A stretch of DNA of 64,000 nt, from the IMG/VR virus record IMGVR_UViG_2675903433_000022; one strand, written 5' to 3'. This DNA is from a virus (Duplodnaviria > Heunggongvirae > Uroviricota > Caudoviricetes). Below, piece after piece: positions 29,227 through 42,371 of the stretch. Each line of letters opens with the position of its first letter. The first letter of the stretch is position 1. The notes under the pieces are model-generated. The model did not search any database. It was not told the DNA's origin and worked only from the letters and a program-made list of their open reading frames with translations. Position numbers and translations under genes: made by a program.

Positions 29227-29327
29227 CGCCTTAAATCTGCTGTAACGCCTATGAATGCAGCTTTTATGCCTTTTCAATTTTGTAATAATTACACCAATAA
29301 GAAAACAATTTGTTTAATGGTGTAATT

Positions 29328-31013
29328 ATGAATACAGCCCTTTCCATCATCGACGATGCCAGCTCAAACACGGCTATCGACTATCGTCAGGAAATGAATG
29401 TCATCCACGAAATCGTGGCCGAGTGCGAGAAAGAGATCGCCTTCATGTATCAGGTACACGACTTCGTTTATGGCGACGAACGCCACAACATGATTAATCG
29501 CCTGCTGAGACTAAACCATCGACCAGATGAAGATCGCTCGCGTTTAAATCGAGGTTGGTTGGATAAAGTCGATCTGGAATGGGTGAAACAGAATATTTGG
29601 GCCGAGTACTGGAGGAAGGTCACGGACATGACTAACGTTTTGCTGATCATGCCAGCTTCCCGTCGAGATGAGTGGCGCGAGCAGTTTATAGAGGGCAAAC
29701 AGGAAGTCATCAAAACTGACAGAACCGGCTACCAGATGAAGGTTAAAGAGTTCGTTGGTGTACCGGAGTTCAAAGCAGAAACGGTCATACCCACGATGCT
29801 TAATTTGCTGAATGACAGGCACAAATATCTCTCTGAGCGCGTGTATGGCTTGTTTAAGGCGCTGAGTCCTGCGCACAAGACAAATAAGACAAACGGTTTC
29901 AGCGAGCGGCTGATAATCGCTGACTGCATTTCTGATTTCTGGCGGGACAGCGTTAGCGTGAACTATCGCAAAGAGGACTACATCGACGATCTGCGTGTCT
30001 TGCTTCATTTCTTCGCGCACAAAGAATTTATTACCATCAACCGTACTGCTGAGGTGCTATCAGCTGCGTATCGGGCAAACGACTGCCAGACCGGTGACTG
30101 GATGAACGTCGATGGAAATCTGATGCGCGTGAAGATGTTCAAGAACGGCAACGTTCACTTTGAAATACATCCTGACGTGGCCTGGAAGTTGAATGAGGTG
30201 CTGGCTTACAGTATGCCTGCTGCAATTCCCGCGCCATGCCGAACTGCGCCAAAAACACGGGCACCAAAGCAGTTCGGGTTAATCCAGAAGACGATCTCCG
30301 TGCCGGTTCGCACTGCGCTTCGTGACGGGCGATTGAGCAAAGACAAAGGCGTATGGTACTTCTCTGATTCAGCTCTCCAGAAGTCGCAGGTGGAAGAGCT
30401 TGAGCGCACACTGAGCTTCATTGGCGGCGTGCAGGAGAAAAAGCACTGGCAGTTCCCGTATGAGATCGGCCATACGCTAAATACGATTGTGGCTACCGGT
30501 TTAATACCGGATACAAAATCACACCAGTTCTACCCTACCCCACGCTTGATTGCTGAGTACGTTGCCAGAGCCACTGAATTGAAGCCTGGTGAGAAGCTGC
30601 TGGAGCCTCAAGCCGGACGTGGGGATCTTCTGGCCTATATTAACGCCGATCTGGAAGATGTTACCTGCATAGAAATCGCACCTCTCTTCGCTGATATCCT
30701 GCGTGGAAAAGGGTATACGAACACGATTTGCTGCGACTTCATAAAGTGGTCTGAGGACAACGCAGGTTATCAGTTCGACAAAATCGTTATGAACCCGCCG
30801 TACTCGCTTGGTCGTCATAGAGAGCACACGCTGGCTGCGCTGGGGCATCTGAAAGTCGGCGGGCGTCTTGTAGCAGTATTGCCGGGCACTGCGCCAATAC
30901 TGGACTGGATGACGATGGATAATTACGTTTATGCCAGAGGGAAGTCGTTTACCAACGAGTTTGAAGATACCGGGATCACAGTCAGCGTATACGTTTTCAA
31001 ACGCGTTAAATGA
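29328..31013 (+). CDS. two-domain DNA methyltransferase (amino-methyltransferase, NPPY type) with N-terminal domain of unknown function
   Basis: Track ORF 29310..31013, ATG 29328; C-terminal SAM-binding LEPQAGRGDL and catalytic VMNPPYS. Confidence 0.7.
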   Translation: MNTALSIIDDASSNTAIDYRQEMNVIHEIVAECEKEIAFMYQVHDFVYGDERHNMINRLLRLNHRPDEDRSRLNRGWLDKVDLEWVKQNIWAEYWRKVTDMTNVLLIMPASRRDEWREQFIEGKQEVIKTDRTGYQMKVKEFVGVPEFKAETVIPTMLNLLNDRHKYLSERVYGLFKALSPAHKTNKTNGFSERLIIADCISDFWRDSVSVNYRKEDYIDDLRVLLHFFAHKEFITINRTAEVLSAAYRANDCQTGDWMNVDGNLMRVKMFKNGNVHFEIHPDVAWKLNEVLAYSMPAAIPAPCRTAPKTRAPKQFGLIQKTISVPVRTALRDGRLSKDKGVWYFSDSALQKSQVEELERTLSFIGGVQEKKHWQFPYEIGHTLNTIVATGLIPDTKSHQFYPTPRLIAEYVARATELKPGEKLLEPQAGRGDLLAYINADLEDVTCIEIAPLFADILRGKGYTNTICCDFIKWSEDNAGYQFDKIVMNPPYSLGRHREHTLAALGHLKVGGRLVAVLPGTAPILDWMTMDNYVYARGKSFTNEFEDTGITVSVYVFKRVK

Positions 31014-31779: not shown

Positions 31780-32159
31780 TGTTTGGCATTGATACACAGC
31801 GTATAGCAGCTTTTGCAAAAAGCCCTCTTGATAATCCCTTGTCTCGTAGTGAGCAAATGGAGCTGGCAAGGCTTTTTCTTCATATTCAAAAACAGGCAGA
31901 CATTTTCAATAACATGCCTAATCAACCTATTCTGGATGGTCACATCCAGATGGTCATTAACAGTCATGAGAAAGGCTGGGCTGCAATCGTCCCCTGCACA
32001 ATTACATACAAGTTGGCGAAAGAGGTTCAAGAGTTTCGAAAAGTCAGTGTCGAATCAGAGTCTACCAAAGCCGCAATAAACACTCTTATTCGCATGGGGT
32101 TCACATGGGACGGTGGAGCTTACTGGCAAGCACCTCAACCCATTTTATCCGGCAATTAG
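31779..32159 (+). CDS. hypothetical protein
   Basis: Track ORF 126 aa; start overlaps the upstream stop. Confidence 0.5.
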   Translation: MFGIDTQRIAAFAKSPLDNPLSRSEQMELARLFLHIQKQADIFNNMPNQPILDGHIQMVINSHEKGWAAIVPCTITYKLAKEVQEFRKVSVESESTKAAINTLIRMGFTWDGGAYWQAPQPILSGN

Positions 32160-32189: not shown

Positions 32190-32210
32190 AAGGCCATAAC
32201 TTATGGCCTT
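32190..32210 (+). terminator. stem-loop terminator (AAGGCC..GGCCTT family)
   Basis: AAGGCCATAACTTATGGCCTT; same stem family at ~37432 and ~46573. Confidence 0.5.
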
Positions 32211-32297: not shown

Positions 32298-32747
32298 ATG
32301 AGTAACAAAATCGAAAACCCCGTAGTTCTCATTCACAAGCGTGAGAACCACGACTCCTATGCCGTGACGATCACCAATGGGAGTCACGATTTTTACGATG
32401 GTCTGCTAATGGCCTCAGTGTCGCCTGATGAGGCAGACAACTCTTTTGCCGTCTTCGCTATGGTTGGTTACTACATGGCTGCCGAAATTGAGAAGTTGCG
32501 GGCGCAGAGAGAAGCATTAGCGGCGGAGAATGCAGCCCTGAAAGAATCTGAGCGAGCATTCGATGCGATGTGTGCCGAGGAACACGGAGATAATTGGGTT
32601 AGCGAATTAACGGAAGCCCCTGCTACCGACGCTTTTCTGGCTGAGATACGAGCGCAGGGCGTGGAGATGTTTGCTGAGTGCGCATACACACTTGAACATC
32701 ATGATCACGCAGTAGCCTTCGCCGCTGAGCTTCGCAAAGGAGCATGA
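32298..32747 (+). CDS. hypothetical protein
   Basis: Track ORF 149 aa. Confidence 0.55.
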   Translation: MSNKIENPVVLIHKRENHDSYAVTITNGSHDFYDGLLMASVSPDEADNSFAVFAMVGYYMAAEIEKLRAQREALAAENAALKESERAFDAMCAEEHGDNWVSELTEAPATDAFLAEIRAQGVEMFAECAYTLEHHDHAVAFAAELRKGA

Positions 32748-32748
32748 T

Positions 32749-32994
32749 ATGGCAACCAATAAAACGTTAGAAGCCGCCAACTTATGGCAGATTGAGCGTG
32801 CAAGGTTTGAAGCGGAACACCCGGATTTGCGAATAATGCTTAACCGTGTCGAAGAGCAACTGCATTGCAATATTATGGCGTCGGTCATCATGCTTAATGA
32901 CCTTTCTTATACCGTTCGAGAAGTTAAGCGCAAAGCTAACGCGAAAGAAGTAAATAGCTCACCGAATACAAATGGTGATGTGAAATGCAGATAG
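32749..32994 (+). CDS. hypothetical protein
   Basis: Track ORF 81 aa, 1 bp after the upstream stop. Confidence 0.5.
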   Translation: MATNKTLEAANLWQIERARFEAEHPDLRIMLNRVEEQLHCNIMASVIMLNDLSYTVREVKRKANAKEVNSSPNTNGDVKCR

Positions 32995-33336
32995 TGTTCT
33001 TCGGCTTGCTTCCACACCCAATTCGCCTTTGGGCGTCAACATCACTCATAAAGCCGCATGTCTTTTCTGATGGAACCGGTATTCCTGCATCAAAGCGTCG
33101 TACCGGTATCGCGGCGGCACGGCGTGCAGCAAGGAAACGCAGGAGAGCAAAACGATGAAAAACCGTAAAGCAAAGATTCTATTAGTTCGTAGAAACGACC
33201 CTCGAGTCTTGCAATGGACAAGAATCAGCAACAGGAGAACGGGATTGTTCACTCATGTTGGTCAGATTATGCACTCATTTCGGGATGGTGGATTTTGGTT
33301 AAATCATGATCGTGTCGAAAATTAAGGTGAAAGAAG

Positions 33337-33660
33337 ATGACCACATCGCATTCTGCTATTACCCAGGAAAAAGCCTTCCACATACTCGAACGATTAGAGG
33401 CGCTTGCTACGGAGGAAGATATATCACTGGAGAAACTGGTTGAGTTCAGCCGTGTGATATTGCGTCGCAAGAACGATATGGAGCGACTGACATCTGGCGC
33501 TCAATCCTTATCAGTCAGGCGAACACTTTGTTGCAGCTTCTGCAACAAATCCCAGTACGCCGTCAAAAAGTTAATTGCTGGGGACGCCGTTTTCATCTGC
33601 GACGAGTGTGTGGATGTGTGCAACAGAATTATCCGGGGAGAGAAAGAGGGATCAGCATGA
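33337..33660 (+). CDS. protein with C-terminal ClpX-type C4 zinc-binding domain (ZBD) look-alike
   Basis: [34 protein letters not shown] closely parallels the ClpX N-terminal ZBD [34 protein letters not shown]; no AAA+ domain follows. Confidence 0.6.
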
Positions 33661-34178
33661 AATTTTCCAAATTTTCTGAGTTGGTGAATCGTATTTTGTC
33701 CAACAACCACAGCCATCGTCGCGATATGGATGTAACGATCGTTGTTCATTCGCCTGGTCGCATCGGTTCAACACCATCAGTTGAGGTTCAGTCAATTCAG
33801 GCGGGTTTTGATTGGGATGCCGGGAAAGTGATGATTTTTCCAGCACAGCCACTGACCACGCTAACACCGGAGCAGGTTGCTGATATTACTGAAAGTGTGC
33901 ACAAAGGCCAGTCATGGCACGCGTATCAGGAATACAAGAAGCATAAAGAGCAGTTGGAAAAATTGTCGATGGAGTTGGAAGCCGCTAAACAGAGGGAAAA
34001 AGATCTGTTTATGGAAAATGTTCGACTTAAGTCAGGTATAGCCGGTCTGATACACCTCGGTATTCGATATGCGGATGTTGAGGTCATGAAAATTGCTGGA
34101 GATGCCCAGCTTTCTACTCCATGCACTGACAGCATCATAAACAGCATTGCAACAGGCATTCGCATTACAGCAGAGTGA
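33657..34178 (+). CDS. hypothetical protein
   Basis: Track ORF 33528..34178, ATG 33657 overlapping the upstream stop. Confidence 0.5.
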
Positions 34179-34381
34179 GTGATATGGATAAAAATACCCC
34201 TGCTTACTGGAGTTTATCACTTGATACCGAATGCCCAAAATGCGGTCACAATTTCGATCTGCTTTGTGATGCTGATTTTTGGGAGTTTTCTGGAGCGAAA
34301 CAGGCGTGTGAAGAAATAGAAGGTTACGAAACATGCTGTCCAGAATGCAACCATGAATTTAAAACAGATTTTGTGTATTGA
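34175..34381 (+). CDS. small zinc-ribbon protein (CxxC...CxxC)
   Basis: 68 aa with CPKCGH and CCPECNH pairs. Confidence 0.5.
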   Translation: MSDMDKNTPAYWSLSLDTECPKCGHNFDLLCDADFWEFSGAKQACEEIEGYETCCPECNHEFKTDFVY

Positions 34382-34391
34382 AGCATAGCAA

Positions 34392-34913
34392 ATGACCACC
34401 TTTACCAAAGAACAACTAATTGATCATATTAATGATCGCAAAGATGTCCGTCAGAGAATGTTGGATACCGCAACGATTTCTTCTGGATTCCGAGAATATC
34501 TTGAAAGAGAGCTTGCCACCGATCAGATTGCCCTAGCGTCGCTGGAAGCTGAACCTGTTCTGTATCAGTCCTGCACTCGCCCCACTTGGAATAGCGGTGT
34601 TCCGTGGACGGAATGGAAAGAACGTAGTCGTGAGGGCTACGAAAACGATTTGCGCTTTACAGACACGCCTGACCATGCCGGTTGGATAAACAAATGTCGA
34701 AAACTATATACCACTCCGCCAGCGTCACTGCTACCTGACGGACTGGTTAAAGCCGTGCGCTTCTATGAACAGGTTAAGCGTGAAAATCCGCCAGTCGAAA
34801 CCGGAGCATGGAAAGACGCGGTTGACTGGGTGCTTAAAGAGGCTTTCCAGGCTGTATCAGTGTTGGAAAGCAGTAGAGAACACGAAGTTATTAGCCAGCA
34901 GGAGAAGGCATGA
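34392..34913 (+). CDS. hypothetical protein (N-terminus paralogous to 35108 gene)
   Basis: Shares N-terminal MTTFTKEQLI with the gene at 35108. Confidence 0.5.
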   Translation: MTTFTKEQLIDHINDRKDVRQRMLDTATISSGFREYLERELATDQIALASLEAEPVLYQSCTRPTWNSGVPWTEWKERSREGYENDLRFTDTPDHAGWINKCRKLYTTPPASLLPDGLVKAVRFYEQVKRENPPVETGAWKDAVDWVLKEAFQAVSVLESSREHEVISQQEKA

Positions 34914-35107: not shown

Positions 35108-35812
35108 ATGACCACCTTTACCAAAGAACAGTTAATCTCCCATGCACGCGAAAGCGTTAGTTATCTGGAAAACTTGAAAGGACGTGTTAGCAAAGAAGGT
35201 GCGGACTGCAAAGTTGTTATTGAGATGGTTGCACGAGATCTAAAACTGGCTCGAATTGCACTGACCTCACTTGAGACAAAACCAATAGGTGCATTCCACA
35301 TTGCAGAACAGCAAGTTGACGGTACAAGTGACTACATCAAGGATGGAGAGTGGCCTATTGATAATGGGACAATTGAAGTATACGCCGCCCCTCCAGTGCC
35401 AGTAGTACCGGAAGAAAAACCAATGCCTAATCCTCTTAGCATGTACGCGGTTGATGCTGTTGCCGCTATTGCAGAGGTGAGAGGCTGGAACGCCTGTCGT
35501 GCCGCTATGCTTCAGAGTCAAGATAATTGCATTAAGGATGGTTGGATAAGCTGTAGTGAGCGAATGCCTGTAATCGGCGAGCTAAATTGGAGAACTGGTT
35601 TTCCTTTGCTGATTACGTGTGAGATCGGCGTTATACCAGCTTATTACGGCTTTGTGAGCGTTAATGGGGATAAGCATTATGGTTTTATGGAAAGTTTTAA
35701 ATACGGAGACGATCGCGGCGGCCATCCTAAAACTAATGAATATGGTCTGATTAGCAATGTCACACACTGGATGCCGCTACCAGAACCTCCGCAGGAGTCG
35801 AAGAGTGAATAA
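35108..35812 (+). CDS. hypothetical protein (paralog of 34392 gene at N-terminus)
   Basis: N-terminal MTTFTKEQLI; C-terminal Trp/Pro-rich tail THWMPLPEPP. Confidence 0.5.
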   Translation: MTTFTKEQLISHARESVSYLENLKGRVSKEGADCKVVIEMVARDLKLARIALTSLETKPIGAFHIAEQQVDGTSDYIKDGEWPIDNGTIEVYAAPPVPVVPEEKPMPNPLSMYAVDAVAAIAEVRGWNACRAAMLQSQDNCIKDGWISCSERMPVIGELNWRTGFPLLITCEIGVIPAYYGFVSVNGDKHYGFMESFKYGDDRGGHPKTNEYGLISNVTHWMPLPEPPQESKSE

Positions 35813-37415: not shown

Positions 37416-37431
37416 GTATCACTTCTCCATT

Positions 37432-37452
37432 AAGGCCACAACTAGTGGCCTT
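37432..37452 (+). terminator. stem-loop terminator (AAGGCC..GGCCTT family)
   Basis: AAGGCCACAACTAGTGGCCTT followed by the TTGTTTTCTAC..GAGAAAAT cassette. Confidence 0.5.
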
Positions 37453-37538
37453 AAACAATTTGTTTTCTACGTTTTCTTATTTGAGAAAATCACGTTGTTG
37501 GCAGCTCATAGGCTTGTTGTTATACATAGCTGTATAGA

Positions 37539-38652: not shown

Positions 38653-39042
38653 ATGGGCTTCCCTTCTCCTGCGGCGGATTATGCTGAGAGCCGTATTTCT
38701 CTTGATCAGCAGATAATTAGACATCCTTCAGCGACCTACTTCATGAGGGCAGCTGATAGCCATCATCGTGAGGGAATATTACAGGGTGCATTGCTGGTGG
38801 TCGATTCCTCACTTACCCCGGTTGATGGTTCTCTGCTTGTATGCGCTCTGGATGGGGAATATCGCGTAAAAAGATACCGGAAGTATCCACGTCAGCATCT
38901 GGAGGATTTAAGAACCGGTAAGAAGGAAGCATTGCCAAAGGATGACGATGGATGCACGGGCAGCAATGCCGTGTTTGGTGTGATCACTCACATTATCAAC
39001 GACGCAAGAAGTGGCGAGTTTGATGATTGTCCCGTGATGTAG
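38653..39042 (+). CDS. UmuD'-like (HumD-like) S24 peptidase-family protein
   Basis: Starts MGFPSPAADY, i.e. at the position equivalent to the post-cleavage N-terminus of UmuD (C|GFPSPAADY); HPSATYF and Ser/Lys dyad region conserved. Confidence 0.8.
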   Translation: MGFPSPAADYAESRISLDQQIIRHPSATYFMRAADSHHREGILQGALLVVDSSLTPVDGSLLVCALDGEYRVKRYRKYPRQHLEDLRTGKKEALPKDDDGCTGSNAVFGVITHIINDARSGEFDDCPVM

Positions 39043-39079: not shown

Positions 39080-40180
39080 TCACACTGCGCGGAATGCGAT
39101 TTCGCCAGGTATTACTTCACCTTGCCAATACATTTGGGCAGCAACGCGATCTGCGAGGTCACGATAAATAGCCGTAAATTCGCTATCTGGACGACTAATA
39201 ACGGTTGGTGTTCCGTTATCCAGATCTTCACGAAGAGAGATATGAAGTGGCATTTGGCCTAACAACTGCGTGTTGTATTTCTCGGCCAGTTTCTGTGCGC
39301 CACCGGTGCCAAAAATTGGCTCGTGATGACCGCAGTTACTGCAAATATGCATACTCATGTTCTCGACAATACCGAGCACCGGAACCTCGACTTTCTCGAA
39401 CATCACAATGCCTTTTTTCGCATCGATCAACGCGATGTCCTGCGGCGTAGTTACCACAACCGCACCAGTTACAGGAATGTTCTGCGCCAGCGTCAATTGA
39501 ATATCACCAGTGCCCGGCGGCATATCGAGAACGAGATAGTCCAGATCAGGCCATAGAGTTTCCTGCAACATCTGCATTAACGCCTTGCTCGCCATCGGAC
39601 CACGCCACACCATCGCATTGTCGTCAGTTACCAGATAACCAATTGAATTGGTTGCCAGTCCATGAGACATAATCGGTGCCATGTGAGTACCGTCCGGTGA
39701 GGTTGGACGTTGGTTTTCCGCGCCAAGCATGGTTGGAATTGATGGCCCGTAGATATCGGCATCCAAAATACCAACTTTCGCACCTTCAGCAGCCAACGCC
39801 AGTGCCAGGTTTACCGCCGTGGAGGATTTACCAACGCCGCCCTTGCCTGAGCTGACGGCGATAATGTTCTTAACGCCATTAATGCCTGGTTGGTTTTTGA
39901 CGCGCTTAAGCGTGGCAATGTTGTACGACAGCTTCCAGTCGATAGCCTTTGCGCCAGTGATACGGAGCAGATCACCACTACATTGCTCTTTCAGGTCTTC
40001 AAAAGGCTTATTCCACACGAAAGGCATGATTAGTTCGACATGCAGTGTGTCATCCATCAACGCAACATGGTGTAACGCTTTAAGCGTAGTCAGGTTGTGT
40101 TTCAGGGTTGGGTGCTGAAAATTAGCCAGCGTACCGGCTACCATTGCTCTCAGGGCATCCGGCGATTTGGACTCGCTCAT
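39080..40180 (-). CDS. apbC: Fe-S cluster carrier ATPase Mrp/ApbC
   Basis: 366 aa; deviant Walker A SGKGGVGKS; reads as near full-length enterobacterial Mrp by recall. Confidence 0.9.
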   Translation of the reverse strand: MSESKSPDALRAMVAGTLANFQHPTLKHNLTTLKALHHVALMDDTLHVELIMPFVWNKPFEDLKEQCSGDLLRITGAKAIDWKLSYNIATLKRVKNQPGINGVKNIIAVSSGKGGVGKSSTAVNLALALAAEGAKVGILDADIYGPSIPTMLGAENQRPTSPDGTHMAPIMSHGLATNSIGYLVTDDNAMVWRGPMASKALMQMLQETLWPDLDYLVLDMPPGTGDIQLTLAQNIPVTGAVVVTTPQDIALIDAKKGIVMFEKVEVPVLGIVENMSMHICSNCGHHEPIFGTGGAQKLAEKYNTQLLGQMPLHISLREDLDNGTPTVISRPDSEFTAIYRDLADRVAAQMYWQGEVIPGEIAFRAV

Positions 40181-40337
40181 CCCGTCTCCTTTATTTTAAT
40201 TTGCGCAATTGTCGCCTTGTAGTGTACTCCAGCTACGGCATTTAATCATTTATGAGAAATGCTGTTATCACATGGCAGACATAAGGCCATTTTGTTACTA
40301 TCAAGCCCCTTTTCACTACAAAGAAGTAATGCCTACT

Positions 40338-42371
40338 ATGACCCAAGTCGCGAAGAAAATTCTGGTGACGTGCGCGCTGCCGTACGCTAACGGCTCAATC
40401 CACCTCGGCCATATGCTGGAGCACATCCAGGCTGATGTCTGGGTTCGTTACCAGCGAATGCGCGGCCACGAGGTTAATTTCATCTGTGCCGACGATGCCC
40501 ACGGTACGCCGATCATGCTGAAAGCACAGCAGCTTGGTATCACACCGGAGCAGATGATTGGCGAAATGAGTCAGGAACACCAGACTGATTTCGCAGGCTT
40601 TAACATCAGCTATGACAACTATCACTCGACGCACAGCGAAGAGAACCGTCAGTTGTCTGAGCTTATCTATACTCGCCTGAAAGAGAACGGTTTTATTAAA
40701 AATCGTACCATCTCTCAGCTGTACGACCCGGAAAAAGGCATGTTCCTGCCGGACCGTTTTGTAAAAGGCACCTGCCCTAAATGTAAAGCGCCAGATCAAT
40801 ACGGCGATAACTGTGAAGTCTGCGGCGCGACTTACAGCCCGACTGAACTGATCGAGCCGAAATCGGTAGTTTCTGGTGCTACGCCGGTAATGCGTGATTC
40901 CGAACACTTCTTCTTTGATCTGCCTTCTTTCAGCGAAATGTTGCAGGCATGGACCCGCAGCGGTGCGTTGCAGGAGCAGGTGGCAAACAAAATGCAGGAG
41001 TGGTTTGAATCTGGCCTGCAACAGTGGGATATCTCCCGTGACGCACCTTACTTCGGTTTTGAAATTCCGAACGCGCCGGGCAAATATTTCTACGTCTGGC
41101 TGGACGCGCCGATTGGCTACATGGGTTCCTTCAAGAATCTGTGCGACAAGCGCGGTGATACCACCAGCTTCGATGAATACTGGAAGAAAGACTCCACCGC
41201 CGAGCTGTACCACTTCATCGGTAAAGATATTGTTTACTTCCACAGCCTGTTCTGGCCTGCCATGCTGGAAGGCAGCAACTTCCGCAAGCCGACCAACCTG
41301 TTTGTTCATGGCTATGTGACGGTGAACGGCGCAAAGATGTCCAAGTCTCGCGGCACCTTTATTAAAGCCAGCACCTGGCTGAATCATTTTGACGCTGACA
41401 GCCTGCGTTACTACTACACTGCGAAACTCTCTTCGCGCATTGATGATATCGATCTCAACCTGGAGGATTTCGTTCAGCGCGTGAATGCCGATATCGTGAA
41501 CAAAGTGGTTAACCTGGCCTCCCGTAATGCAGGCTTTATCAACAAGCGTTTTGACGGCGTGCTGGCAAGCGAACTGGCTGACCCGCAACTGTACAAAACC
41601 TTTACTGATGCCGCTGAAGTGATTGGTGAAGCATGGGAAAGCCGCGAATTTGGTAAAGCGATTCGTGAAATCATGGCGCTGGCTGATCTGGCTAACCGCT
41701 ATGTCGATGAACAGGCTCCGTGGGTGGTGGCGAAGCAGGAAGGACGCGATGCCGATCTGCAGGCGATTTGCTCTATGGGCATTAACCTGTTCCGCGTGCT
41801 GATGACGTACCTGAAACCGGTACTGCCGAAACTGACTGAACGTGCAGAAGCATTCCTGAATACAGAACTGACCTGGGATGGTATCCAGCAACCGCTGCTG
41901 GGCCATAAAGTGAATCCGTTCAAGGCACTGTATAACCGTATCGATATGAAACAGGTGGAAGCACTGGTGGAAGCATCCAAAGAAGAAGTGAAAGCCACAG
42001 CTGCACCGGTAACTGGCCCACTGGCTGACGACCCGATTCAGGAAACCATCACCTTTGACGACTTCGCCAAAGTTGACCTGCGTGTGGCGCTGATTGAAAA
42101 CGCGGAGTTTGTCGAAGGTTCTGACAAACTGCTTCGCCTGACGCTGGATCTCGGTGGTGAAAAGCGTAATGTCTTCTCAGGCATCCGTTCCGCTTATCCA
42201 GATCCACAGGCACTGATTGGTCGTCACACCATTATGGTGGCTAACCTGGCTCCGCGTAAAATGCGCTTCGGTATCTCTGAAGGCATGGTGATGGCTGCTG
42301 GCCCCGGCGGGAAAGATATCTTCCTGTTAAGCCCGGATGCTGGTGCTAAACCTGGCCACCAGGTTAAGTAA
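40338..42371 (+). CDS. metG: methionyl-tRNA synthetase
   Basis: Track ORF 40209..42371, true start ATG 40338 (MTQVAKKIL); HIGH-type motif [14 protein letters not shown], zinc knuckles CPKC/CEVC and C-terminal tRNA-binding domain. Confidence 0.95.

What the first reader, a model, noticed from the sequence alone, without database searches (positions are those of the whole stretch)
33337..33660. Stand-alone ClpX zinc-binding-domain look-alike
The C-terminal 40 residues ([34 protein letters not shown]) match the ClpX N-terminal C4 zinc-binding domain almost motif for motif, but the protein is only 107 aa with no AAA+ module. The ClpX ZBD dimerises and docks adaptors and substrates, so a free mimic could plausibly heterodimerise with host ClpX to block or redirect ClpXP proteolysis. 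That functional idea is inference only.
Basis: partly seen in the sequence, partly recalled or inferred. Interest (0 to 1): 0.65.

Follow-up and report, generated by a model that had tools for sequence, protein, structure and literature searches.

The report
Phage-encoded stand-alone ClpX zinc domain
A 107-residue protein on an E. coli phage-plasmid joins a conserved helical hairpin to a real copy of the zinc-binding docking domain of the host ClpX unfoldase; it most likely acts as a free decoy that changes which proteins the ClpXP protease destroys, but this has never been tested.

Summary
ORF 33337..33660 (+) encodes 107 aa. Residues 64-101 are a true ClpX N-terminal C4 zinc-binding domain (ZBD): Pfam PF06689 scores 57.5 bits against a cutoff of 27, it is 68% identical to the E. 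coli ClpX ZBD, and the AF2 model fits PDB 2DS6 at 0.6 A. There is no AAA+ module.

This hairpin occurs only fused to a ZBD and is more conserved (81%) than the ZBD (71%).

The gene is a mobile single-gene cassette. It sits in accessory regions of SSU5-like and P1/D6-like phage-plasmids and in the gpA-gpQ hotspot of P2-like prophages, with homologues in about 4% of complete E. coli genomes. RefSeq already names it "ClpX C4-type zinc finger protein". I found no functional study.

Published biochemistry shows that free ClpX ZBD added in trans inhibits adaptor-dependent degradation. The best reading is therefore a trans-acting decoy for adaptors and N-domain-dependent substrates (confidence 0.4), rather than heterodimerisation with ClpX. 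The faster-evolving ZBD and the strongly conserved hairpin warn that the real target may differ.

Verdict: a new variant of a known kind, with moderate interest.

The parts
33324..33329 (+). Shine-Dalgarno-like AAGGTG, 7 nt upstream of the start codon
   Evidence: Read directly from the sequence. An in-frame TGA at 33328 fixes ATG 33337 as the first possible start.
33337..33660 (+). CDS, 107 aa: hairpin + linker + ClpX-type ZBD (PHROG 6797, RefSeq name 'ClpX C4-type zinc finger protein')
   Evidence: (phrog_6797, E=2e-57, full length). Whole-gene dN/dS is 0.2-0.6 against homologues.
33361..33492 (+). N-terminal helical hairpin, residues 9-52 (helices 10-26 and 31-52); family-specific and the most conserved part
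   Evidence: AF2 pLDDT is about 77-82. Mean pairwise identity is 81%. phmmer of residues 1-60 against 1.8 billion representatives finds it only fused to a ZBD. There is no Pfam or PDB relative.
33493..33525 (+). Flexible linker, residues 53-63
   Evidence: pLDDT is below 50 for residues 56-61. It is the least conserved segment, at 62%.
33526..33639 (+). ClpX-type C4 zinc-binding domain, residues 64-101. Zn ligands are C66, C69, C88 and C91. The docking-pocket equivalents are F68 (ClpX F16) and I98 (ClpX I46).
   Evidence: All four Cys and F68 are invariant in 24 family members.
33657..34178 (+). Downstream 173-aa gene (phrog_6026/368, unknown function) whose ATG overlaps the ZBD stop codon (ATGA). 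It is co-inherited with the ZBD gene only in SSU5-like elements.
   Evidence: (a shared block 33335-34160 with PhiR41_1). It is unrelated to the downstream genes in P2-like or D6 contexts.
37430..37454 (+). Intrinsic-terminator-like hairpin that closes the same-strand run of small accessory genes containing the ZBD gene
   Evidence: 10-bp stem, 5 GC pairs. No + strand sigma-70-like promoter was found between 31000 and 38500, so the gene is probably read as part of a polycistronic unit.

Best explanation
The protein is a trans-acting mimic of the ClpX N-terminal domain. Shown: it carries an intact ClpX-type zinc-binding domain with the four Zn ligands and most of the hydrophobic residues of the adaptor/substrate docking surface. 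This domain is tethered by a flexible linker to a family-specific helical hairpin. Both domains are under purifying selection, and the gene travels as a single-gene cassette among temperate, mostly plasmid-capable phages of Escherichia and Salmonella. Inferred: like the isolated ClpX ZBD, it dimerises and offers the same docking groove, but it is not attached to an unfoldase. When expressed, it would soak up the tethering motifs of adaptors (SspB, RssB) and of N-domain-dependent substrates (lambda-O-type initiators, MuA, UmuD/UmuD', unfolded antitoxins such as MqsA). Those clients would then be spared or delayed, while substrates that engage the ClpX pore directly (ssrA-type) would still be degraded. 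The hairpin would add avidity through extra oligomerisation, or a second specific contact that targets the decoy to one client. The likely payoff is stabilisation of phage or host proteins useful to a plasmid prophage. The element's own pre-cleaved UmuD'-like protein at 38653..39042 is one candidate.
For: The domain identity is certain. Free ClpX ZBD in trans inhibits RssB-dependent sigmaS degradation (PMC7226468). The ClpX N-domain directly binds UmuD', lambda O, MuA, FtsZ, SspB and unfolded MqsA (PMC8808172). F16 and I46 form the pocket used by lambda O, SspB, RssB and trigger factor (PMC7804408). The equivalents are kept here: F68 is invariant; position 98 is I or V in 21/24 members; L64 is kept in 88%, I80 in 92%, A81 in 75% and K78 in 67%. 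The ZBD scores higher against gamma-proteobacterial ClpX (57.7 bits) than against Listeria (43.1) or Neisseria (35.9) ClpX. There is purifying selection at long range, with dN/dS about 0.2 for both hairpin and ZBD. The family is present in 220 of 5426 complete E. coli genomes on four unrelated phage backbones with no conserved partner gene, so it is a self-sufficient effector. Other phages independently carry ZBD-only ORFs: Caulobacter phage Cr30, Pseudomonas phage PP9W2 (65 aa) and phrog_12435. The same element encodes a pre-processed UmuD' homologue.
Against: There is no binding or activity data for this protein. In vitro, the isolated ZBD needed roughly 8- to 33-fold excess over ClpXP to inhibit, so a plain decoy is weak. 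Within the family the ZBD is the faster-evolving part: 46-80% identity to the host ZBD, and dN/dS above 1 in two close pairs, though on few substitutions. A decoy for conserved host motifs would be expected to stay constant. Several ClpX positions are systematically replaced (G18->N/K/F, E23->A/T, P31->D/E, S32->D/A/N, Y34->F/C), and their effect on the beta-hairpin that pairs with the SspB tail is unknown. The hairpin is the best-conserved part, which suggests that the key interaction may not involve the ZBD groove at all.
Confidence: 0.4

Rival explanations
1. Heterodimer model. The phage ZBD pairs with a ZBD of a ClpX protomer and inserts itself into the hexamer's N-domain layer. This either poisons the docking sites or, through the hairpin, tethers a new cargo to ClpX and so acts as an adaptor that redirects proteolysis.
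For: The hydrophobic core and helix residues shared with ClpX are kept: L64, F68, V76, L79, I80, V85, I87, V92, I99. One sub-lineage (P0022, P0122, P0125) stays 76-80% identical to the host ZBD, including AGPSVYIC. The conserved hairpin on a flexible linker is what a cargo-binding arm would look like.
Against: The ClpX ZBD is described as a constitutive dimer, and in the hexamer the partner domains are at very high local concentration, so exchange with a free domain is disfavoured (inference). The published trans effect of free ZBD is explained by competition for the adaptor. Dimer-interface compatibility could not be computed here because no multimer prediction was available.
Confidence: 0.15
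2. Hairpin-centred effector. The conserved helical hairpin binds a conserved phage or host target unrelated to ClpXP. The ZBD serves only as a compact zinc-stabilised dimerisation module borrowed from clpX.
For: The hairpin is more conserved than the ZBD (81% against 71%). ZBD identity to the host drifts down to 46% in some members. The same Pfam domain is reused in non-protease contexts, such as an accessory domain on cyanobacterial sigma-70 factors. The gene lies among Ead/Ea22-type genes, and ea22 itself is reported to favour the lysogenic pathway (PMC7093339).
Against: Solvent-exposed docking residues (F68, L64, I80, A81, I/V98) are retained beyond what the fold needs. Lytic phages carry ZBD-only ORFs with no hairpin, which argues that the ZBD itself is the useful part. 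No partner or target for the hairpin could be identified.
Confidence: 0.2
3. Prophage-encoded exclusion factor. The mechanism is the same decoy, but the beneficiary is the lysogen. By masking the ClpX N-domain function, the resident prophage blocks superinfecting elements that need ClpX, for example remodelling of the MuA transpososome.
For: In P2-like prophages the gene always sits in the gpA-gpQ locus. That locus is a documented hotspot of anti-phage cargo (PMC9122126, PMC13586616). Arrangements containing zf-C4_ClpX are listed in a supplementary table of the P2-like hotspot loci in Rousset et al.. MuA is an N-domain-dependent ClpX client.
Against: There is no PADLOC match for it or its neighbours. 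The hotspot also holds non-defence cargo: about a quarter of P2-like phages carry a partition system there, and this gene often sits next to exactly that StbA/StbB module. The arrangement is not discussed in the main text of PMC9122126, and none of the three newly validated systems is described as containing a ClpX zinc finger. In the phage-plasmids it lies in an early-type accessory operon, not a defence island.
Confidence: 0.12
4. Decaying fragment of a captured clpX gene with no function.
For: It is short, and older PGAP versions gave it the erroneous name 'carboxylate--amine ligase'.
Against: Intact ORFs are found on four phage backbones, whole-gene dN/dS is 0.2-0.6, Zn ligands are invariant, the non-ClpX hairpin is conserved, and blastn finds no DNA similarity to host clpX across 5426 E. 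coli genomes.
Confidence: 0.02

Closest known systems
[quoted passage not shown]
   Same: It has the same fold, the same CxxC-18-CxxC zinc site, 68% sequence identity (46-80% across the family), and retained docking-pocket residues F16 and I46.
   Different: It is not attached to an AAA+ unfoldase. It lies at the C-terminus of a 107-aa protein behind a novel helical hairpin. There are systematic substitutions at ClpX G18, E23, P31, S32 and Y34.
Isolated ClpX ZBD used as an in-vitro competitor (PMC7226468)
   Same: A free ZBD with no ATPase, shown to block RssB-dependent sigmaS degradation by competing for the adaptor. This is the direct mechanistic precedent.
   Different: That is a laboratory fragment used at 5-20 uM. 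This is a natural, selected gene with an extra conserved domain, and its activity is untested.
Anti-adaptors and phage-encoded protease modulators (IraD/IraM/IraP acting on RssB; from my own knowledge also T4 PinA and T7 gp4.5 against Lon, lambda CIII against FtsH, lambda RexB)
   Same: These are small proteins, often on mobile elements, that stabilise selected substrates by interfering with recognition rather than catalysis. IraD and the ClpX ZBD are proposed to share a docking site on RssB.
   Different: There is no sequence or fold relationship (no Pfam hit outside PF06689). This protein would work by copying the protease's own docking domain, a strategy not described for those proteins.
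Other stand-alone ZBD ORFs in phages (Caulobacter phage Cr30 L010:2522-2761; Pseudomonas phage PP9W2 65-aa 'Clp protease'; phrog_12435, phrog_5259)
   Same: They are ZBD-only small proteins in viral genomes, and all are uncharacterised.
   Different: They lack the hairpin. Some are in virulent phages of other hosts. Their sequence relationship is limited to the ZBD.
zf-C4_ClpX as an accessory domain of cyanobacterial sigma-70 factors (PMC11119718)
   Same: The same Pfam domain is used outside ClpX.
   Different: It is fused to a transcription factor and is not free. No function is known there either.

Membership tests
ClpX C4 zinc-binding domain (PF06689) | Profile score above the curated gathering threshold | tested here: met
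   57.5 bits against a cutoff of 27, E=1.2e-15, covering profile positions 2-38 of 39.
ClpX C4 zinc-binding domain (PF06689) | Four Cys zinc ligands spaced CxxC-(18)-CxxC | tested here: met
   C66, C69, C88 and C91 are invariant in 24 members.
ClpX C4 zinc-binding domain (PF06689) | Zinc-ribbon / treble-clef fold with a beta-hairpin and a C-terminal helix | tested here: met
   The AF2 model (pLDDT 75-84 in this region) superposes on 2DS6/2DS5/2DS8 at 0.6-0.7 A over 38 residues.
ClpX C4 zinc-binding domain (PF06689) | Homodimerisation of the domain | not testable with these tools
   Only monomer prediction was available. Hydrophobic residues shared with ClpX are retained, but the interface could not be modelled.
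ClpX C4 zinc-binding domain (PF06689) | Binds XB-type tethering motifs of adaptors and substrates through the F16/I46 hydrophobic pocket | tested here: inconclusive
   The pocket residues are conserved (F68 invariant; I/V98 in 21/24), as are the MqsA-contact residues L64, I80 and A81.
ClpX unfoldase (NCBIfam TIGR00382 / NF003745) | AAA+ ATPase module following the ZBD | tested here: not met
   Only model positions 4-48 match, at 41.9 and 39.8 bits against cutoffs of 359 and 371. The protein ends 6 residues after the ZBD.
Anti-phage defence systems (PADLOC-DB v2) | Match to any model of a known or candidate defence protein | tested here: not met
   There are no hits for this protein, its P88 homologue or six neighbours at E<=0.01.
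Protease anti-adaptors / inhibitors (functional class) | Stabilises specific substrates by blocking adaptor or substrate docking | not testable with these tools
   This needs biochemistry. The only support is the precedent of the isolated ZBD.

The most novel reading that the evidence does not exclude
Temperate phages and phage-plasmids of enterobacteria carry a dedicated 'docking-domain decoy': a copy of the ClpX N-domain fused to a targeting hairpin. It selectively reprogrammes ClpXP substrate choice, for example by protecting the element's own pre-cleaved UmuD'-type mutagenesis protein, its replication initiator or an antitoxin, or by stabilising sigmaS. The ZBD surface would be evolving quickly in an arms race. 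This would be the first natural example of a virus disabling an AAA+ protease by mimicking its substrate-recognition domain. ZBD-only ORFs in unrelated phages (Cr30, PP9W2) would then be independent inventions of the same trick.
Probability: 0.3. Interest if true: 0.75.

Novelty: new variant of a known kind. Interest (0 to 1): 0.5.

Why it matters
ClpXP controls replication initiators, SOS mutagenesis proteins, sigmaS, antitoxins and Mu transposition in E. coli. Phage inhibitors are known for Lon and FtsH, but I found no description of a natural ClpX-directed one in the searchable literature. This family has homologues in about 4% of complete E. coli genomes, many on phage-plasmids. If it is a recognition-domain decoy, it would be a new way for mobile elements to edit host proteolysis. 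It would also be a ready-made tool for separating N-domain-dependent from pore-dependent ClpXP substrates in vivo. It would give a function to many database entries now labelled only 'ClpX C4-type zinc finger protein'. If the hairpin is the real effector, the family is still a clean case of domain capture from an essential host machine.

Tried and rejected
1. Recent capture from host clpX. blastn (word 11) of the gene against 5426 E. coli genomes hit only 220 genomes and never clpX itself, so there is no DNA-level trace.

2. Conserved partner gene or toxin-antitoxin-like pair. The neighbours differ between SSU5-like, D6, P88-like and other P2-like contexts. The downstream 173-aa and 169-aa proteins are unrelated. 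The mosaic joint with PhiR41_1 lies 2 nt before the ATG.

3. Known defence system. PADLOC was negative.

4. Identity of the hairpin. There is no Pfam hit at E<=1. A profile search of the PDB gave nothing below E=1. An exhaustive phmmer search found only ZBD-fused relatives. P0121 (a 2237-aa repeat protein) and P0127 (a 650-aa repeat protein whose N-terminus looked ubiquitin-like to me and whose repeats looked BAG-like, by inspection only) are judged chance or low-complexity matches.

5. A marginal PHROG hit to a 'transposase' family (phrog_12300, E=0.0055, covering residues 6-101) could not be followed up because PHROG members are not retrievable here.

6. An XB-like motif in the hairpin (L42-R43-R44-K45, compared with the reported ZBD-binding consensus LKxh) is too short to evaluate and lies in a predicted helix. 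I dropped it.

7. Own promoter. No sigma-70-like site was found upstream in the window or in L012.

8. Literature. Ten searches found no functional study of a stand-alone ZBD protein. The primary ZBD papers (Wojtyra 2003, Thibault 2006) are not held.

Full report
**The observation**

The ORF at 33337..33660 on the + strand is real and encodes 107 aa. An in-frame TGA at 33328 and an AAGGTG box 7 nt upstream fix the start codon. Its stop codon overlaps the start of the next gene (ATGA at 33657-33660).

Pfam assigns residues 65-100 to zf-C4_ClpX (PF06689) at E=1.2e-15 and 57.5 bits, against a gathering cutoff of 27. phmmer against the PDB finds the E. coli ClpX zinc-binding domain (2DS5, 1OVX) at E=1e-14, in an ungapped alignment of residues 62-102 with 28/41 identities. 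An AlphaFold2 model built on a 24-sequence family alignment superposes on the crystal structures 2DS6, 2DS5 and 2DS8 at 0.6-0.7 A over 38 residues. The NCBIfam ClpX equivalog models match only their first ~48 positions and fall far below threshold, so there is no AAA+ module.

**Anatomy beyond the finding**

The protein has two domains. Residues 10-26 and 31-52 are predicted as a helical hairpin (pLDDT about 77-82). Residues 53-63 form a low-confidence linker, and residues 64-101 are the ZBD.

In a 24-member alignment the hairpin is the best-conserved part: 81% mean pairwise identity, against 71% for the ZBD and 62% for the linker. An exhaustive phmmer search with residues 1-60 against 1.8 billion representative proteins found the hairpin only in proteins that also carry the ZBD, or in truncated versions of them. 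The two large hits are repeat proteins that I judge to be chance matches. Neither Pfam nor a profile search of the PDB gives the hairpin a relative.

**The ZBD compared with ClpX**

All four Cys ligands are invariant. So is F68, the equivalent of ClpX F16. I98 (ClpX I46) is I or V in 21 of 24 members. F16 and I46 form the hydrophobic side pocket used by lambda O, SspB, RssB and trigger factor (PMC7804408).

The residues with the strongest NMR shifts on binding of unfolded MqsA are L13, K27, I29 and A30 in Met1 numbering (PMC8808172). They correspond to L64 (kept in 88%), K78 (67%), I80 (92%) and A81 (75%).

Several ClpX positions are systematically different in the main lineage: G18->N/K/F, E23->A/T, P31->D/E, S32->D/A/N and Y34->F/C. 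Identity to the E. coli ZBD ranges from 46% to 80% across the family. One sub-lineage (P0022, P0122, P0125) keeps the host-like AGPSVYIC motif.

**Selection**

Whole-gene dN/dS is 0.2-0.6. At long range both domains are near 0.2. In two close pairs the ZBD shows dN/dS above 1 (2.05 and 1.24), but this rests on very few substitutions. I take this as a hint, not a result.

**Where the gene lives**

The window is an SSU5-like phage-plasmid of about 108-110 kb. It is 96-97% identical over the aligned parts to Escherichia phage PhiR41_1 and CMS-2020a, and the ZBD gene itself is 99.7% identical to that on an E. coli plasmid.

The gene sits in a tightly packed same-strand run of small ea22/eaa-type accessory genes. 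No sigma-70-like promoter was found between 31000 and 38500, and a terminator-like hairpin lies at 37430-37454.

Full-length homologues occur in three other settings:
- Phage D6, which is P1-like (86% identity).
- P88-type P2-like prophages (51% identity).
- Other P2-like prophages.

In P2-like prophages the gene always lies between replication gene A and portal gene Q. It often follows a ParM/StbA-StbB partition module and sits next to Ead/Ea22-family genes.

That locus is the documented P2 hotspot for anti-phage cargo. It also holds other functions: about a quarter of P2-like phages carry the partition system there, perhaps allowing plasmid maintenance (PMC9122126, PMC13586616). A supplementary table of Rousset et al. 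that catalogues these hotspot loci already lists arrangements such as 'StbA + Plasmid_stab_B + zf-C4_ClpX + hypothetical'. Its main text does not discuss them.

No neighbour is conserved across backbones. The mosaic joint with PhiR41_1 falls 2 nt before the ATG. The gene therefore moves as an independent cassette.

blastn finds homologues in 220 of 5426 complete E. coli genomes, at 127 chromosomal and 106 plasmid places. It never finds clpX itself, so there is no recent DNA-level capture. RefSeq now names these genes 'ClpX C4-type zinc finger protein'. Older records carry the erroneous 'carboxylate--amine ligase'. PADLOC has no match.

**Mechanism**

The most direct precedent is biochemical. 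Purified ClpX ZBD added in trans at 5-20 uM inhibits RssB-mediated sigmaS degradation by 0.6 uM ClpXP, and ClpX lacking the ZBD cannot degrade sigmaS while still handling ssrA-tagged proteins (PMC7226468). The N-domain directly contacts UmuD', lambda O, MuA, FtsZ, SspB and unfolded MqsA (PMC8808172).

A natural free ZBD with a preserved pocket should therefore compete for these clients. I rate this decoy model at 0.4.

It explains three things:
- The gene needs no partner.
- ZBD-only ORFs recur in unrelated phages: Cr30, PP9W2 and phrog_12435.
- The domain stays closer to gamma-proteobacterial ClpX than to Listeria or Neisseria ClpX.

It does not explain why the hairpin is the most conserved part, or why the ZBD diverges.

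Three alternatives remain open:
It is disfavoured because the ZBDs of a hexamer are constitutive dimers at high local concentration, which is my inference.
- A hairpin-centred function with the ZBD as a mere dimerisation module (0.2).
- The decoy serving as an exclusion factor for the lysogen (0.12).

A dead gene fragment is excluded by the conservation data.

**A candidate client in cis**

The same element encodes a 129-aa Peptidase_S24 protein at 38653..39042. Its residue 2 aligns with residue 1 of UmuD' (1UMU) and with residue 25 of full-length UmuD (8GMT). It is therefore a pre-cleaved UmuD', like P1 HumD. ClpXP degrades UmuD' when it is tethered through the ClpX N-domain (citing Neher 2003 and Gonzalez 2000). 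A ZBD decoy could protect it. This link is speculative, and the P2-like carriers were not checked for such a gene.

**Novelty and score**

The domain assignment is already in public annotation, and the gene is catalogued in one hotspot survey. Ten full-text searches found no functional study of any stand-alone ZBD protein.

It is best described as a new variant of a known kind: a known recognition domain in a new, free, phage-borne architecture that plausibly adds ClpX to the list of proteases targeted by phage modulators. Interest is 0.5. The hypothesis is well founded, cheap to test and widely distributed, but it is entirely inferential at present, and the evolutionary pattern is not a clean fit to the simplest model.

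Noticed in passing
window 38653..39042 (+): A 129-aa Peptidase_S24 protein begins exactly at the residue equivalent to the UmuD Cys24/Gly25 cleavage site. Residue 2 aligns to residue 1 of UmuD' (1UMU) and residue 25 of UmuD (8GMT). It is a pre-processed UmuD'/HumD-type protein on the phage-plasmid, and a possible ClpXP client.
   Followed up: partly
window 39080..40180 (-) and 40209..42371 (+): The phage-plasmid carries a full-length Mrp/ApbC-type P-loop NTPase (PF10609, E=2e-102) and a complete methionyl-tRNA synthetase with a tRNA-binding domain (PF09334, E=5e-166). These are unusual host-like housekeeping cargo.
   Followed up: partly
window 29310..31013 (+): A 567-aa protein with DUF4942 (E=1.7e-20) and a C-terminal region containing an NPPY motif (IVMNPPYSLG). 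It is probably an N6-adenine DNA methyltransferase. Its role is unknown.
   Followed up: no
window 34175..34381 (+): A 68-aa ORF with two CxxC pairs (CPKC...CPEC), a second small zinc-ribbon protein two genes downstream of the ZBD gene. It matches phrog_4173 positions 160-224 of 323 (E=3e-27), so it looks like a detached piece of a larger family.
   Followed up: no
window 34392..34913 and 35108..35812 (+): Two neighbouring genes start with the same N-terminal module (MTTFTKEQLI...) but have different C-terminal parts; the second ends in DUF551. This is an example of the module shuffling typical of the Ead/Ea22-like accessory region.
   Followed up: no
window 32670..33335: A segment immediately upstream of the ZBD gene has no counterpart in PhiR41_1, which has an Ea22 gene there. 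It holds only doubtful small ORFs, one with an arginine-rich tail (32985..33158). The homology block resumes 2 nt before the ZBD start codon.
   Followed up: partly
L012 4904..4960: A perfect 26-bp inverted repeat with a 5-nt loop (CACTGTCTTACTTTGTCCGTACTTTT-ACACC-AAAAGTACGGACAAAGTAAGACAGTG) lies in the 105-bp gap just upstream of the ZBD gene in a P2-like prophage. There is no T-run after it. It could be an operator, a terminator or a recombination site.
   Followed up: no
L010 2522..2761 (Caulobacter phage Cr30, KF301602 81470-81709): A ZBD-only ORF of about 72-79 aa is present, but the record annotates only a 41-aa CDS (81584-81709) that starts inside the zinc finger. This is a likely mis-annotation in a virulent T4-like phage.
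   Followed up: partly
window 33526..33639 compared with D6 (L003) and L004: In close pairs the ZBD codons show dN/dS above 1 (2.05 and 1.24), while the hairpin shows 0.13-0.27. Changes cluster at the equivalents of ClpX H22, E23, L42, D45, I46 and E49. The counts are too small for significance, but this may indicate diversifying selection on the docking surface.
   Followed up: partly
window 32190..32210: A GC-rich hairpin (AAGGCCATAAGTTATGGCCTT) sits between ORFs ending at 32159 and starting at 32298. It was scored as terminator-like on the - strand and may mark the upstream boundary of the accessory-gene transcription unit.
   Followed up: no
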